A stretch of DNA of 64,000 nt, from positions 124,001 through 188,000 of the forward strand of contig JALDZX010000034.1 in the NCBI GenBank assembly GCA_022813865.1. Direction: 5' to 3'. The DNA comes from Xylographa opegraphella (lineage: Eukaryota). Positions 13,567-17,700 of this stretch are shown here, one piece after another (the stretch's first letter is position 1; every line of letters starts with the position of its first letter). The notes below the pieces were generated by a model, which was not told the DNA's origin, did no database searches, and saw only the letters and a program-made list of their open reading frames with translations. The position numbers and the translations under genes are program-made.

Positions 13567-14308
13567 TCATGCTGTCGCGGTCTGCTGTGCGGGAGTGTCT
13601 ATCATCTCCACCTCCACCTTAGGCATCGATGAGCCCGTTCCGCCAAGATCCGTCGCTCGTGCCTTGGGGTTCTTGGTGTAGTAGTTTGAAATGGCGGATT
13701 TGATGGCATCTTCGGCCAACATGGAGCAATGCACTAATACCCATTATCAGCATCATTTCTATCACTCCCGTTTCTAACCCCACAGCCATCCACTTCACCC
13801 AAGACCACCGTATTACAGCCGCCAGTAGGACCACTCACATTTCACCGGAGGCAAGCACAGCTCCCTCGCAATCTCCGTATTCCGGATCTTCCCCGCATCC
13901 TCCAAGCTCATTCCCCGAACCAACTCCGTCAGATAGCTACTGCTGGCGATGGCGCTTCCACATCCGAAAGTCTTGAACTTGACATCGCTGATGGTATTCG
14001 AGTTGGGGTCCACCCGGATCTGCAGCTTCATCACGTCGCCACAAGCCGGAGCTCCGACGAGACCGGTGCCAACGTCGGCGTCCGTCTTGGACATGGAGCC
14101 GACATTGCGAGGCTTGCTGTAGTGGTCGAGCAGTACGCGGGATGTTAGCTTCCCATGATGGTGATGGCGGAGAAGGTCTGGACTTATCTTTTTCATGGTA
14201 GCTCCTTCGTATGGAGAGCGAGAGCGGAGAGGCGGTAGGGACGGGTCTGGCCGAGACGGCGAGAACACGAGATGCGGCGCGTGGGACAGTGGTAAGTGAC
14301 TTGTACAT
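13567..14308 (-). CDS. ISU1: Mitochondrial Fe-S cluster scaffold Isu1/IscU; exons 14308-14188, 14132-13839, 13733-13567
   Basis: Arg/Ser-rich presequence, YHEKVLDHYSKPRNVG, GAPACGDVM, FKTFGCGSAIASSS, LPPVK-LHCSMLAEDAIK; first intron (14187-14133) is AT-AC, second is GT-AG. Confidence 0.95.
14133..14187 (-). other. Non-canonical AT-AC intron (55 nt) in ISU1
   Basis: Minus strand: GAA AAA G|ATAAGTCC...GCTAACATCCCGCGTAC|TG CTC GAC CAC; removal restores frame and the conserved K-V-L-D-H-Y sequence. Confidence 0.85.
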
Positions 14309-14419
14309 GATTACGGTTGATTGTTTCTGTGTAGGATTGAAGAGGTTATCGTCGATCAAGGACGCAGTCTAATATTTCACATGACGTTGAGCCCGCTTTG
14401 TGGCGAAACTTTATTACAT

Positions 14420-14701: not shown

Positions 14702-17700
14702 TCAATCCTCTGTAAAAGTGCCTCCCAGATCCACCTTCCCCACACTCCACACTTCCCGTTCATCCTCCACCTCATCGCCGCTCAACCCCAGTCCTCCCTG
14801 GCCACCTTCGGCTTCCCGTCTCTCTCTGGCCTGAGCACCTAGTCTCAGGCCTACGCGCTTGAAATAGTCTTGCATGCTTCTCTTCGTTGTAGGATTCAGC
14901 TCAGCGCCTGGTCCTGCTATATACTTGTCAAAAACCGCGCTATCCTGTTCCACCACGGCGAAGAGTGCCAGGAAGGCAGCTTCTGCAGCTAATTTGACAG
15001 GTATGACGGGGTCGCGGACACTGGCGAAGATAGGAGGTGCGAGAAGGGGGAGATGTGGCCGGACGAGGTCGGAATGGCGGCGGCTAAGTGTGCGGATGAC
15101 GACGAGGGCAAGCCGGCGGGTATCCACCGGATTGCCAGGAGACAGAACAGCAGCAAGAGCTTCAAAGAGTGGTTTGCTGGCTTCGAAGGAAGAGGTGTTC
15201 GCTGTGGTGAGGAGGTATTTACCAGCGGCTAGAACGGCGTTGTCGGCAATAAAGGGAAATTTGCTTTGAATACCAAGACTTATGATGCTAGGTGTCTCAT
15301 TCGAGAAGGTGTCGATAAGAGATGAGGGCGATTCGAGAAGTATTGAATTCAGGTTGAGAATTGAGGCATTCGTAAAACGAGTGGCAAGAGCACGGTGCTT
15401 GATTAGGGGATTTGCGTCTGGAGCCGGAAGGTTCTTGATGAGGGCACCAAGGAGACGCGCATTTGTTATGGCCATTGAGTCATCAGAGTCGATGTTATCG
15501 CTGTCAATGAGACTTAGTATGGAAGTACGTGAAGCTTCACTCATGTTAGCACCAGCTTTGCTGACGACCTCGTACAAGGCCTTTAGCATGGCGTTGCGGA
15601 CGCCGACGTCCGGTGTCTTAGTTCCTGTCACCAGTTCTATTGTATTGATTAGAATTTTTGTCGATCTTCACAGCTCATGCAGATGGCTCAAACATACCTG
15701 CTATCAATGGATCTATCCGAGGCTTCAGAGTCAAAAGCGTTCCCAGTGCCTTTGCGGCTCGGCTTCGCAGAACTTCGCTAGTGGGATCAGCAAGAGACTT
15801 GGCGAAAGTGCGCTGCAGTTGCGGCATGAATGGCCTCAAGGACGACGGTATCTTTTCGAGGAGATTGTTCAGAGTTAATAATATAGCCGCTAATTCAAAT
15901 TAGCTTCTTCGGCGCATGAGCTTCTTGTGCCAAACTCACATTTCACATCCACAGAGCGCTCCGAAACAACTCTGATAAGAGGTCCGGTAATGTTTGTCAC
16001 GAAAGGCTTCAGTGCATCGGGACTTGTGCGATCAATGACATCAGAAATGGCAAGCGCGGATTGCGTTCGTTGTTCCCCAGTACCATTCATAAGGCCTTGA
16101 AGGAATATAGGCAGAATTGCATTGACGCCTTTAGGCAAGCAAAATCCGGGCAGATCGGAACCAGCAACTCCGACCTGTTGTAAGACTTGACGAGATGAGA
16201 AGACAAGCGACTCCATCTCCTCCTTTCGTAAATGCTTCATCAGCTCGGAGAGTGCGGTCCACGCGGCTTTTACAACCTCTGAGTCTCGATCATCAAATGA
16301 AAAAAGCAGTACACGAATGAGATCCTGATTGTAGCGGGAGAAGTCCACATCCGTTTCGGCAAAAAACTTGCTCAGACGGATATCTGCACTAGCTCGTCTC
16401 TTGTGATCGTCGTGCTTCATGAGGGTCAGCATAACATTCATGGCAGTGTTTAAGCCATCGAATTCGTCGATGGAAAGCAGAACAGCGTCGAATGAGGCGT
16501 CCAGATCATTCCTTAATTCGTCGTCCAAACACGAAACCATATTGTCCATTAAAGCATTTAGTATCGCTGGTAGTCGTCTCGTCATCGCTGGTCCAGCAAC
16601 TTGGGATAAAGAAGCAATGGCTTTCGCATTGAAGGGTGTAATTGGTGACGCTATTAATGTTGGTACGAGGTTGGGAAGAATAATGTTAGATCTCGTATTG
16701 TCAGTTAGAAGAGTCAGCAAAGCAGAAAGCGCAGTATCGGCTTCGCCTTCGGTTCTCAAAAGGTTCAGAAGGTATGGCAGGACTTGATCAACAGCTCTCT
16801 TTCCAAATATTTGTTGCAAGGAGTCGAATGCCTCTGCAGCTGTGTCGCGAACATCATCGTCAGGATCAACAAGAGCTGATCGAACAACTGAGATCAGGAC
16901 CTTCTCGTAGTCCTCGAGTGTTTCGAGAGCCGCCGAGGATATGATCTCCCTCAATGCGATACAGATGCCTTGCTTACTATCAGTATCCGTTGATTTTTGA
17001 AGGCCTTCTTCCAGTGTTGGCAGGAGAGTTGCGAGGACATTCTCTCCCGCTTTCCTAATCAGTTCACCCAAAGCATTTCCAGCGATAACCCTCTGCTCCA
17101 TGTTCGAACTTGCGAGGCGGCGAATGATGAGCTGCGTGAGAGTAGGTATAAGCTCCTTGAGAGTCCTTGGGGTTGCGACGAGTGCCTTCGACACATTGAT
17201 AGCAGCGGTACGAACGAGGCCGGACGTGTCGCATCGACAAATATACAAAGAAGATAAGATCCTGTTTCTCTTATCTTCACCGAGTACTTCCAGTAGAGAC
17301 TGGCCCGCCTCTGCAGCATTATCCACCTCATCATCTTGATCGGTCTTGACGCTAATGCCTGTGAGATTGAAGAGAAGGTCACCGACCAGTTCGACTGAGC
17401 TGAGACGGATCCTATAACTGCCATCCGCTAGACCACGATCAAGCTCGGGAAGGAGTAGATCGATGGACTTGGTAGCGAAGTTCTTCACGAGCAATCTGCC
17501 AGCCCGAAGTGACGTTTCACGAATGGACTCGACGTCATCTGCTAGACCAGCAAGTATCGGTGGAATGATCTTGCTAAGATATGCTGCAAAACTGTTTCCA
17601 AAGCAGGCGGGAAGAAAGATGAAGAGCGACATGAACCCTTCTCGGACACTTGGTCTACTGCTAGCAACATTCTGCAGGATAGTTGGCAGAGTCTCTTCCA

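What the first reader, a model, noticed from the sequence alone, without database searches (positions are those of the whole stretch)
14133..14187. ISU1 depends on an AT-AC intron with major-spliceosome (U2-type) signals
Seen: the presequence exon (...RRSYHEK) and the scaffold domain (LDHYSKPRNVG) lie in different frames, separated by 55 nt that begin ATAAGT, carry a perfect GCTAAC branch point and end TAC. Removing exactly AT...AC gives K-GTG(V)-L-D-H-Y, the conserved IscU sequence. No GT-AG pair does this: the next AG after the branch point lies inside the conserved DHYS codons. Established: U12 introns have an ATATCCTT donor and a TCCTTAAC branch, neither present here, and filamentous ascomycetes are generally considered to lack the minor spliceosome; paired G1A / last-G-to-C termini can be tolerated by the major spliceosome. 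Inference: this is a natural U2-type AT-AC intron in an essential Fe-S gene. Two compensating terminal changes are unlikely to be sequencing error, and inefficient splicing could act as a throttle (possibly iron-responsive) on Fe-S assembly. Gene callers would mis-annotate it.
Basis: partly seen in the sequence, partly recalled or inferred. Interest (0 to 1): 0.9.

Follow-up and report, generated by a model that had tools for sequence, protein, structure and literature searches.

The report
Conserved AT-AC intron in fungal ISU1
The gene for the mitochondrial iron-sulfur scaffold protein of this lichen-type fungus has a rare intron that starts with AT and ends with AC but otherwise looks ordinary; its relatives have kept it for a very long time and gene-finding programs routinely get it wrong.

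Summary
On the minus strand, ISU1 exon 1 (ATG 14308, ending ...RRSYHEK plus G at 14188) and exon 2 (TG-CTC-GAC..., from 14132) are separated by 55 nt (14187..14133). This stretch reads ATAAGT...GCTAAC...TAC.

- **RNA evidence.** Contigs from three of four metatranscriptome runs laid on the window join 14132 to 14188 exactly. They come from close relatives, not this strain.
- **DNA evidence.** Three independent metagenomic fungal loci carry an intron at the same phase-1 site. Lengths are 105, 128 and 90 nt. All start AT(A)(A/C)GT, have CTAAC and end AC.
- **Protein evidence.** Of 272 related predicted proteins, 101 read through this site. All 101 carry the footprint of a terminal C, and 25 of 25 carry the footprint of a G|AT donor.

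The splice signals are major-spliceosome (U2) type, not U12 type, and the literature finds no minor introns in Ascomycota. This makes it a new, deeply conserved member of the known "AT-AC type II" class. It is probably trapped, because switching to GT-AG needs two simultaneous changes.

U2 dependence is inferred, not shown. The iron "throttle" idea has no support. 18 of 21 species-named database entries mis-annotate the site.

The parts
14188..14308 (-). ISU1 exon 1 (coding part). It holds the start codon (14308-14306), the mitochondrial presequence and the first residues of the NifU_N domain (YHEK), plus the first base (G) of the Val codon.
   Evidence: Translation. NifU_N profile positions 2-6 correspond to YHEKV in correctly joined relatives. 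RNA contigs cover 14185-14324 in X1-X3.
14133..14187 (-). Intron 1: 55 nt, phase 1, AT-AC termini, U2-type signals.
   Evidence: Sequence. Joint 14132->14188 'skips 55, ends GT..AT' on the + strand in X1, X2 and X3. It is the only excision that gives YHEKVLDHY. The same site and termini occur in L001, L003 and L006.
14182..14187 (-). 5' splice site ATAAGT. This is the fungal GTAAGT consensus with G1 changed to A, preceded by exon AAG.
   Evidence: ATA.GT is invariant in 4 of 4 loci. All 25 of 25 proteins that read through in the exon-1 frame have Asp after YHxK.
14144..14149 (-). Branch-point motif GCTAAC; presumed branch A at 14145, 12 nt from the 3' end.
   Evidence: CTAAC lies 11-21 nt from the 3' end in 4 of 4 loci. 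An xLT/xLN footprint is seen in 62 of 82 read-through proteins.
14133..14135 (-). 3' splice site TAC (terminal AC).
   Evidence: AC is invariant in 4 of 4 loci. All 101 of 101 read-through proteins have Leu (C+Tx) before [LI]DHY, preceded by a residue whose codon can end in A.
13839..14132 (-). ISU1 exon 2: the scaffold domain core (LDHYSKPRNVGS...GAPACGD...FGCGS...LPPVK).
   Evidence: Translation. Pfam NifU_N E=5.5e-39, profile positions 7-104. RNA contig pieces cover 13839/13840-14132.
13734..13838 (-). Intron 2: 105 nt, canonical GTGAGT...TAG, phase 1.
   Evidence: Sequence. Joint 13733->13839 'skips 105, ends CT..AC' on the + strand (GT..AG on the gene strand) in all 4 runs. Intron 2 is also GT-AG in L001 and L003.
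13567..13733 (-). ISU1 exon 3 (coding part): (L)HCSMLAEDAIKSAISNYYTKNPKA... with stop TGA at 13569-13567.
   Evidence: Sequence. It translates without a stop (accepted window:13570-13731). RNA contigs cover 13601-13733.

Best explanation
This is the first intron of the nuclear ISU1 gene, which encodes the mitochondrial Fe-S cluster scaffold (IscU/NifU_N family), in a lichen-type ascomycete of the Lecanoromycetes. It is a constitutively removed intron of the rare U2-type AT-AC class ('AT-AC type II').

Apart from its first and last bases, it has normal fungal major-spliceosome signals:
- AAG|ATAAGT, which can pair with U1 and U6 with one mismatch.
- A CTAAC branch site for U2.
- A short distance from the branch to the 3' end.

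The A at the first position and the C at the last replace the usual G...G non-Watson-Crick contact that the second catalytic step needs. The first accessible AC after the branch point therefore serves as the acceptor. Splicing joins G to TG, making the Val codon of the conserved YHEK-V-LDHY start of the scaffold domain.

The AT-AC state is old. It is shared by Lecanoromycetes, Candelariomycetes, Geoglossomycetes and Dothideomycetes. The most likely reason is that it is trapped. A change to GT-AG needs both ends to mutate together, and either single change would break an important gene. The only escape actually seen is loss of the whole intron, as in Helotiales.

Shown: the exact boundaries, RNA junctions in relatives, conservation, and the type of signals. 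Inferred: major-spliceosome dependence, the A-C terminal contact, and the trapping.
For: **1. Boundaries.** Searches give the sequence. In one search, among 7700 frame-keeping excisions, only AT-AC 14187..14133 restores YHEKVLDHY.

**2. RNA.**
- The joint 14132->14188 skipping 55 nt appears in X1 (1 contig, 28 letters on the shorter side), X2 (1 contig of 565 nt, 125 letters on the shorter side) and X3 (1 contig, 18 letters on the shorter side), with 'both' = 0.
- The X2 contig also covers exons 2 and 3 with 15 other letters in 293.
- X5 has no cover of exon 1.
- Three loose-end contigs in X1 continue from 14132 directly into a relative's ...SYHEK+G sequence.

**3. DNA of relatives.** L001, L003 and L006 have an intron at the same phase-1 site.
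- L001 is 105 nt: ATAAGT...GCTAAC...AC|TG.
- L003 is 128 nt: ATAAGT...CTAAC...AC|TC.
- L006 is 90 nt: ATACGT...GCTAAC...AC|TT.
- The interiors are unalignable while the ends are invariant.
- Intron 2 of the same gene is GT-AG in L001 and L003; the same GT-AG joint is seen on the window.

**4. Protein footprints.**
- Of the 120 hits, 82 read through the 3' end. All 82 have Leu before [LI]DHY; an AG end would give Val.
- The residue before that Leu is A, L, S, V or P, all of which have codons ending in A.
- 16 of 16 that read through the 5' end in frame have Asp; a GT donor would give Gly.
- Over all 272 proteins fetched, the figures are 101 of 101 and 25 of 25.

**5. Domain logic.** NifU_N profile positions 2-6 are YHEKV in joined relatives, and exon 2 starts at position 7.

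**6. Type of intron.**
- U2-type AT-AC introns are defined as a good U2 5' site apart from the termini (passages of PMC1557818).
- No convincing minor introns are found in Ascomycota or Basidiomycota (passages of PMC10639083).

**7. Trapping.**
- No GT-AG version appears among the read-through predictions (0 of 101 have Val).
- Intron-free genomic forms exist: 25 in list 1 and 41 in list 2 are continuous at site 1 while still reading through intron 2. The named ones are Helotiales.
- The 'trapped' model for AT-AC U2-type introns is in print (passage of PMC2831892).
Against: - **Not this strain's RNA.** No RNA or DNA reads from this very organism were available. All six runs hold only 5-9% of the sampled words. 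The joining contigs differ from the window by about 5-8%, so they come from relatives.
- **Possible gap at the joint.** The joint row is marked 'between: not known', so a few extra letters in those contigs cannot be excluded from that row alone. The X1 loose ends argue against it.
- **Spliceosome not tested.** Which spliceosome acts was not tested. No genome is held, so the absence of U11/U12/U4atac/U6atac could not be checked. The Rfam scan covered only the 64-kb window and found no family, which says nothing about the rest of the genome.
- **Branch distance is ambiguous.** A branch-to-3' distance of 12 nt would also suit a U12 intron.
- **Breadth is mostly indirect.** The wide conservation rests mainly on amino-acid footprints. 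DNA was seen for only 4 loci.
- **Gaps in the survey.** Among the 168 'continuous' proteins, a correctly annotated GT-AG intron cannot be told from an AT-AC one or from no intron. Eurotiomycetes and Sordariomycetes were not sampled.
- **Partly spliced RNA.** Some short 'intron-free' contigs could be partly spliced RNA rather than genomic DNA.
Confidence: 0.88

Rival explanations
1. It is a U12-type (minor-spliceosome) AT-AC intron, and this fungus retains a minor spliceosome.
For: The AT-AC termini and the 12-nt branch-to-3' distance are typical of U12 introns. The genome could not be searched for minor snRNAs.
Against: - The 5' site is ATAAGT or ATACGT in 4 of 4 loci, never ATATCC.
- In-frame read-through gives DK, DN, DE, DT or DM after YHxK, never the DI that ATATCC would give (25 of 25 have Asp and none is followed by Ile in the listed N-termini).
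- The branch motif is the fungal U2-type CTAAC, not TCCTTAAC.
- Published surveys find no convincing minor introns, and find loss of the minor snRNAs, in Ascomycota.
Confidence: 0.02
2. There is no intron. The AT and AC are assembly errors or the gene is a pseudogene; or the real protein starts at the ATG at 14196 (MKKISPDLL...) without a presequence.
For: The ATG at 14196 opens a stop-free frame into exon 2. Many database entries are annotated this way.
Against: - RNA contigs skip the 55 nt.
- Three independent assemblies share the termini.
- The internal ATG falls inside the conserved Y-H-E codons, so it is a by-product of them.
- The ATG is in frame with exon 2 only if the intron length is 1 modulo 3. 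That holds for 1 of 4 loci (55 yes; 105, 128 and 90 no), as chance predicts.
- The YHEK residues belong to the NifU_N domain.
- A minor unspliced isoform cannot be excluded.
Confidence: 0.02
3. The AT-AC termini are kept by selection because slow second-step splicing acts as a regulated throttle on ISU1 output, for example in response to iron.
For: - The termini are invariant over several fungal classes while the intron interior is free to change.
- Engineered AT-AC introns do splice in yeast. That they splice less well than GT-AG is recalled from Parker and Siliciano 1993, which was not read here.
Against: - The same invariance follows from the two-mutation barrier without any function.
- Helotiales appear to do without the intron altogether.
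- No conserved element lies inside the intron.
- No expression data under different iron regimes could be examined.
Confidence: 0.1

Closest known systems
U2-type AT-AC introns ('AT-AC type II'), e.g. human SCN4A/SCN5A introns; 24 found among about 610,000 introns of five species (Sheth et al. 2006, PMC1557818, passages read)
   Same: - AT...AC termini combined with an otherwise consensus U2-type 5' site (/ATAAGT) and an ordinary branch site.
- Conserved over long evolutionary times.
- Explained by the first-last nucleotide contact (G1A rescued by last-G-to-C in yeast, as cited).
   Different: - It occurs in a fungus, in the Fe-S scaffold gene.
- It is very short (55-128 nt).
- It is shared by at least four classes of Pezizomycotina, in a phylum where the minor spliceosome is reported absent.
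- U2 dependence was shown experimentally for the SCN introns but not here.
AT-AC introns reported in other ascomycetes. Xylanase genes of filamentous fungi were hypothesised to hold them. Two Fusarium graminearum introns, FGSG_08743 and FGSG_10073, are in a list of non-canonical sites of which seven were confirmed by Sanger sequencing. About 0.03% of introns in SnowyOwl fungal gene models are AT-AC.
   Same: Natural AT-AC introns in filamentous ascomycetes that must be handled by the major spliceosome.
   Different: - None of these reports concerns ISU1 or shows conservation across classes.
- I could not find out what FGSG_10073 encodes (one search found no paper).
- Its listed coding length of 786 nt, and my reading of its primer, do not look like ISU1.
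U12-type AT-AC introns (minor spliceosome)
   Same: The terminal dinucleotides AT-AC and a short branch-to-3' distance.
   Different: The 5' site is not /ATATCCTT and the branch is not TCCTTAAC. The host phylum is reported to lack minor introns and most minor snRNAs.
The nested AT-AC intron in Saccharomyces cerevisiae RPL30 (Gould et al. 2016, PMC5029451, passages read)
   Same: An endogenous AT-AC splice event in an ascomycete without a minor spliceosome.
   Different: The RPL30 event is a 1-2% side product whose 5' site does not resemble /ATAAGT. The ISU1 intron is the only productive junction of the gene and matches the consensus.

Membership tests
U2-type AT-AC (AT-AC type II) introns | Intron begins AT and ends AC. 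| tested here: met
   Window 14187-14186 AT and 14134-14133 AC. The same holds in L001, L003 and L006.
U2-type AT-AC (AT-AC type II) introns | The 5' site matches the U2-type consensus apart from position +1 (/ATAAGT). | tested here: met
   AAG|ATAAGT in the window, L001 and L003; AAG|ATACGT in L006. The consensus is quoted.
U2-type AT-AC (AT-AC type II) introns | U2-type branch site upstream of the 3' end. | tested here: met
   CTAAC lies 11-21 nt from the 3' end in 4 of 4 loci. The branch nucleotide itself was not mapped.
U2-type AT-AC (AT-AC type II) introns | The intron is actually removed at these boundaries. | tested here: met
   Joint 14132->14188 in RNA contigs of 3 of 4 runs. These come from close relatives, not this strain.
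U2-type AT-AC (AT-AC type II) introns | Splicing depends on U1/U2/U4/U6, not on U11/U12/U4atac/U6atac. | not testable with these tools
   Inferred from the signals and from surveys reporting no minor introns in Ascomycota. No genome is held.
U12-type AT-AC introns | 5' site /ATATCCTT. | tested here: not met
   ATAAGTCC in the window. None of the 4 loci has ATATCC.
U12-type AT-AC introns | Branch site TCCTTAAC 10-15 nt from the 3' end. | tested here: not met
   AAGCTAAC in the window: only the last four letters match and the distance is 12 nt. The motif is CTAAC in all 4 loci.
U12-type AT-AC introns | The genome encodes minor snRNAs. | not testable with these tools
   No genome is held. The window alone gave 0 Rfam matches, which is uninformative.
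IscU/ISU1 Fe-S scaffold (Pfam NifU_N, PF01592) | NifU_N domain with the three cluster-binding Cys and the LPPVK motif. | tested here: met
   Exon 2 scores E=5.5e-39 over profile positions 7-104 of 127. APACGD, FGCGS and LPPVK lie in exon 2 and HCS in exon 3. The roles of these motifs are recalled.
IscU/ISU1 Fe-S scaffold (Pfam NifU_N, PF01592) | N-terminal mitochondrial presequence in eukaryotic members. | tested here: inconclusive
   Exon 1 is Arg/Ser/Ala/Pro-rich and lacks acidic residues before YHEK. No targeting predictor was run.

The most novel reading that the evidence does not exclude
The intron is a living fossil of a U12-type AT-AC intron. On this reading it predates the loss of the minor spliceosome in the ancestor of Dikarya and was rescued by changes at +4 to +6 of the 5' site (ATATCC to ATAAGT). 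This is the rare 'AT-AC U12 to AT-AC U2' path proposed for the sodium-channel introns. It has been locked in since then, across most of Pezizomycotina.

The site, just before the Val of ...K-V-[LIV]-[DE]-H-Y, appears to coincide with the exon 1/2 junction of human ISCU, where the mitochondrial and cytosolic isoforms diverge. That point is recalled, not tested. It would make the position older than the split between animals and fungi.

A weak hint of great age within fungi comes from L006, which has the AT-AC intron. Its C-terminal exon is most like P0256 (unnamed; 69% over 35 aa, 54.7 bits) and next P0111, the Pezizomycete Ascodesmis nigricans (72% over 32 aa).
Probability: 0.2. Interest if true: 0.75.

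Novelty: new member of a known kind. Interest (0 to 1): 0.55.

Why it matters
- **Rarity.** Natural U2-type AT-AC introns are extremely rare: 24 among about 610,000 introns in the survey read. This one sits in a central housekeeping gene and is shared by several classes of filamentous ascomycetes. It offers a natural, genetically accessible case for studying the first-last nucleotide contact of the second splicing step. It also allows a test of the 'trapped intron' idea, and of whether such introns are relics of the lost minor spliceosome.
- **Annotation.** Public annotation of ISU1 is systematically wrong at this site. 18 of 21 species-named entries keep the intron as coding sequence, start inside it or invent other introns. 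Predicted proteins therefore lack the presequence or carry junk insertions. Annotation pipelines that allow AT-AC only with U12 motifs will keep making this error.
- **Prior reports.** My full-text searches found no paper linking AT-AC with ISU1/IscU in fungi. Subscription-only papers and supplementary tables are outside those searches.

Tried and rejected
- **Whole genome.** Asking for the window's genome failed because none is held. The minor-snRNA search could not be done. The Rfam scan of the window alone gave 0 matches and is uninformative.
- **This organism's own reads.** No run holds the organism itself. The six RNA runs hold 5-9% of the sampled words, so strain-level reads, splicing efficiency and intron retention could not be assessed. 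The zero depth over 14150-14184 says nothing about retention, because relatives' introns would not align and contigs drop rare forms.
- **Metagenome scan.** One search returned 80 loci, but only L001-L006 are fungal by identity and upstream sequence. L007-L080 (61-72% identity) were presumed bacterial from identity and the unbroken match, were not checked, and were not used. L002, L004 and L005 are fully joined, mRNA-like contigs. They show the junction codon (GTC/GTT) but not an intron.
- **Third protein search.** One search was meant to name a much-sampled group with an ATACGT-type donor (P0109 and relatives). It found no named close relative.
- **Fusarium AT-AC introns.** I tried to learn whether the validated F. 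graminearum AT-AC intron FGSG_10073 is ISU1. The supplements give no product name and no paper mentions it. Its listed coding length (786 nt) and its primer read unlike ISU1, so I dropped it.
- **GT-AG or GC-AG alternatives in the window.** These were rejected. All of them delete the conserved RRSYHEK or LDHYS, or insert junk, and no such joint was among the rows shown (21 rows were not shown).
- **Earlier findings of this scan.** Nothing relevant was found.
Full report
**What is in the sequence.** The gene lies on the minus strand. From the ATG at 14308-14306, the first exon reads MYKSLTTVPRAASRVLAVSARPVPTASPLSLSIRRSYHEK and is followed by a G at 14188. The next 55 nt (14187..14133) read ATAAGTCCAG...GGAAGCTAACATCCCGCGTAC. 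The sequence then continues TG CTC GAC CAC TAC..., that is (V)LDHYSKPRNVGS..., through LPPVK. This second exon is a NifU_N domain, with E=5.5e-39 over profile positions 7-104 of 127.

A second intron, 13838..13734, is canonical (GTGAGT...TAG). The third exon runs to the stop at 13569-13567. This includes the next AG (14118-14117) lying inside the Y-S codons, and the in-frame ATG at 14196.

**Is AT...AC the only solution?** I enumerated every excision of 30 nt or more that keeps the exon-1 frame joined to the scaffold frame without a stop. There are 7700, among them 22 GT-AG, 32 GC-AG and 22 AT-AC pairs. Only AT-AC 14187..14133 yields ...RRSYHEKVLDHYSKPRNVGS. Every GT-AG or GC-AG option deletes RRSYHEK or LDHYS, or inserts unrelated residues.

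Those residues matter. In correctly joined relatives the NifU_N profile starts one residue before YHEKV, with Y-H-E-K-V at positions 2-6 and L at position 7 (P0088 residues 44-168 match profile 1-124). In the Xylographa entry that keeps the intron as coding sequence (P0005), the domain match starts only at profile position 5.

**RNA evidence.** No run holds this organism itself. Six metatranscriptome runs hold 5-9% of the sampled words. I laid four of them (X1, X2, X3, X5; soil, wood decay, leaf litter) at 80% likeness.

- A joint from 14132 to 14188 that skips 55 nt is present in X1, X2 and X3. Its ends read GT..AT on the plus strand, which is AT..AC on the gene strand.
- In X1 one contig shows it, with 28 letters on the shorter side.
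- In X2 one contig of 565 nt shows it, with 125 letters on the shorter side. The same contig covers 13840-14132 with 15 other letters in 293, and also 13601-13733.
- In X3 one contig shows it, with 18 letters on the shorter side.
- No letters fit both sides. X5 has no cover of exon 1.
- Three further X1 contigs run from 14132 straight into a diverged ...SYHEK+G sequence (loose ends).
- The canonical second intron is skipped in all four runs (13733->13839, 105 nt).

These contigs differ from the window by some 5-8%, so they are mRNAs of close relatives. They show that the mature message has exactly the junction that removal of 14187..14133 would give. The joint row carries the remark 'between: not known'. 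The loose-end sequences argue that nothing lies between.

**DNA of relatives.** One scan of metagenome contigs with the exon-2 protein gave 80 loci. Six are fungal. L007-L080 are 61-72% identical, were presumed bacterial without being checked, and were not used.

L002, L004 and L005 are about 1 kb, fully joined and mRNA-like, with ...GAG AAG GTC CTC......GAG AAG GTT CTC... and ...GAG AAA GTT CTC... at the junction. L001, L003 and L006 are genomic, and each has an intron at the same phase-1 position.

| Locus | Intron length | Signals |
|---|---|---|
| Window | 55 nt | ATAAGT...GCTAAC...AC\|TG |
| L001 | 105 nt | ATAAGT...GCTAAC...AC\|TG |
| L003 | 128 nt | ATAAGT...CTAAC...AC\|TC |
| L006 | 90 nt | ATACGT...GCTAAC...AC\|TT |

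In the four-way alignment (A1), the exon flanks, ATA.GT and the terminal AC are invariant, while the interiors do not align. In L006 an AG lies 6 nt upstream of the AC and would even keep the frame. Even so, the conserved Val codon requires the AC.

In the window, L001 and L006, the AC used is the first one after the branch motif. In L003 an earlier AC lies only 7 nt from the branch A and would break the frame. Intron 2 is GT-AG in L001 and L003 as well. Two matched terminal changes in four independent assemblies cannot be sequencing errors.

**Footprints in predicted proteins.** Many database proteins come from callers that read straight through this intron, which allows an indirect census.

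If the last intron base is C, the read-through codon before [LI]DHY is C+Tx, which is Leu. A G would give Val. If the first two bases are AT, the exon-1 frame reads G+AT, which is Asp. GT would give Gly.

*First search: the 120 best hits.*

| Group | Count | Source |
|---|---|---|
| Read through the 3' end | 82 | |
| ...with Leu before [LI]DHY | 82 of 82 | |
| ...residue before the Leu | A 42, L 20, S 12, V 5, P 3 | |
| Read through the 5' end in frame | 16, all with Asp | |
| Start at the accidental ATG inside the Y-H-E codons (M[KR]K[IM]...) | 23 | |
| Continuous (YHxKV) | 36 | |
| Bacterial-like | 2 | |

Each of A, L, S, V and P has a codon ending in A, as the terminal AC requires.

*All 272 proteins fetched in the three searches.*

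| Group | Count | Source |
|---|---|---|
| Read through | 101 | |
| ...with Leu before [LI]DHY | 101 of 101 | |
| ...with Asp after YHxK, where read in frame | 25 of 25 | |
| Continuous | 168 | |
| Bacterial-like | 3 | |

*Named species with the footprint.*
- Xylographa carneopallida, the closest named relative of the window at 95% identity, in Lecanoromycetes.
- Trichoglossum hirsutum, in Geoglossomycetes.
- Candelina mexicana, in Candelariomycetes.
- Alternaria alternata, in Dothideomycetes.
- Further lichen-forming and pleosporalean genera, whose classes I give from memory.

**Intron loss and gaps in the survey.** The second search, seeded with a 'continuous' protein, returned Helotiales (Hyaloscypha, Mollisia, Botrytis and others). 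All 102 new proteins are continuous at site 1. Of these, 41 still read through intron 2, plus 25 in the first list. That marks them as unspliced genomic DNA without intron 1. A few short contigs could instead be partly spliced RNA, and two of the 25 are annotated entries with an odd intron-2 treatment.

In this sample the site is therefore either AT-AC or intron-free. No read-through prediction shows a G-ending intron. For the spliced or annotated 'continuous' entries, the intron type cannot be told. Eurotiomycetes and Sordariomycetes did not appear in the lists.

**Which spliceosome?** The 5' site is the fungal GTAAGT consensus with only G1 changed, preceded by AAG. The branch motif is the fungal CTAAC.

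- Passages of Gould et al. [quoted passage not shown] U12-type AT-AC introns have /ATATCCTT.
- Passages of Sheth et al. 2006 (PMC1557818) define the class the same way and count 24 such introns in five species.
- The same passages recall that G1A is rescued by a last-G-to-C change in yeast, and that xylanase genes of filamentous fungi had been hypothesised to hold AT-AC II introns.
- Passages of Larue and Roy 2023 (PMC10639083) report no convincing minor introns in Ascomycota or Basidiomycota, and loss of most minor snRNAs.

I could not test the last point for this organism, because no genome is held. The Rfam scan of the window alone found nothing. Major-spliceosome dependence is thus a strong inference, not a demonstration.

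Nothing here speaks for it.
- There is no conserved element inside the intron.
- The unspliced ATG-14196 frame is open into exon 2 in only 1 of 4 loci, as chance predicts.
- Helotiales seem to manage without the intron.

The simpler account is in print for the animal cases. An AT-AC U2-type intron is 'trapped', because switching termini needs simultaneous changes at both ends (Lin et al. 2010, PMC2831892, passage read). For a gene that is central to Fe-S assembly, either intermediate should be strongly deleterious. (Its essentiality in yeast is recalled, not tested.) That leaves intron loss as the only easy exit, which matches the AT-AC-or-absent pattern. The same passage proposes that such introns arise from U12-type AT-AC introns. 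That idea underlies my most novel reading below.

**Comparison with what is known, and novelty.** The intron meets every sequence-level criterion of the AT-AC type II class and fails those of U12 introns (see the membership table). Fungal AT-AC introns have been counted in bulk or validated singly:
- 0.03% of introns in SnowyOwl fungal models (PMC4084796).
- Two in Fusarium graminearum, from a list of non-canonical sites of which seven were confirmed by Sanger sequencing (PMC3577648).
- AT-AC termed a minor non-canonical combination in fungi (PMC7072748).

Eight full-text searches found no paper that links AT-AC with ISU1/IscU or describes a class-spanning conserved U2-type AT-AC intron in fungi. 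Subscription journals and supplementary tables are outside those searches. I therefore rate it a new member of a known kind, notable for its depth of conservation.

It is also notable for the annotation damage it causes. Of the 21 hits that carry a species name, 18 have a wrong N-terminus at this site. Only Diploschistes diacapsis, Massariosphaeria phaeospora and Ascodesmis nigricans read YH.KVLDHY.

**Most novel reading not excluded.** The intron may be a relic of a U12-type AT-AC intron from before Dikarya lost the minor spliceosome.

Two hints point that way, and both are weak. First, L006, which has the AT-AC intron plus an extra intron in the APAC|GD codon, has a C-terminal exon most like P0256 (unnamed, 69% over 35 aa) and next the Pezizomycete Ascodesmis nigricans (72% over 32 aa). 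That would push the AT-AC state to the base of Pezizomycotina. Second, from memory, the junction coincides with the exon 1/2 boundary of human ISCU. I put this reading at about 0.2.

**Verdict.** The regulatory speculation remains untested, and trapping is the more economical explanation.

Noticed in passing
Database proteins P0005, P0026, P0030, P0032, P0046, P0051, P0052, P0058, P0066, P0067, P0071, P0074, P0076, P0082, P0086, P0095, P0096, P0104: 18 of 21 species-named ISU1 entries are mis-annotated at this intron. They translate the intron, start inside it, or use invented splice sites. In some Pleosporales the intron is short, in frame and stop-free, so it is simply kept as coding sequence (e.g. 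...YHEKDKCPILFLTSAALLDHY...).
   Followed up: partly
Proteins (Helotiales) and 25 proteins: Many relatives have an ORF that runs uninterrupted across site 1 while still reading through intron 2. This indicates genomic copies that have lost intron 1. One such form (P0115) has a Pleosporales-like presequence, which hints at a separate loss within Dothideomycetes.
   Followed up: partly
L006:1501-2200: This relative has an extra GT-AG intron inside the scaffold domain, between ...GAPAC and GDVMK..., that the window, L001 and L003 lack. It also has a yeast-like C-terminal tail (IKDYRSKSRN...). It may come from an early-branching lineage of Pezizomycotina.
   Followed up: partly
window 14705-15667 (-): The next ORF upstream on the same strand (321 aa, open at its upstream end) is the C-terminal HEAT-repeat region of GCN1. 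It matches Pfam HEAT_GCN1_C_2 (E=4e-14) and HEAT_GCN1_C (E=4e-10). Its stop lies about 390 nt upstream of the ISU1 start codon.
   Followed up: partly
window 14194-14196 (-): The ATG that prokaryote-style callers use (MKKIS...) is created by the conserved Tyr-His-Glu codons (TAC CAT GAA). This explains why 23 of 82 read-through predictions begin M[KR]K[IM]. It is a by-product, not a conserved start.
   Followed up: yes
PMC3577648 supplementary file 4: Fusarium graminearum has two listed AT-AC introns: FGSG_08743 (347 nt) and FGSG_10073 (52 nt, phase 1 by my arithmetic). Their gene products are not named in the files I saw. They would be worth comparing with the ISU1 intron.
   Followed up: partly
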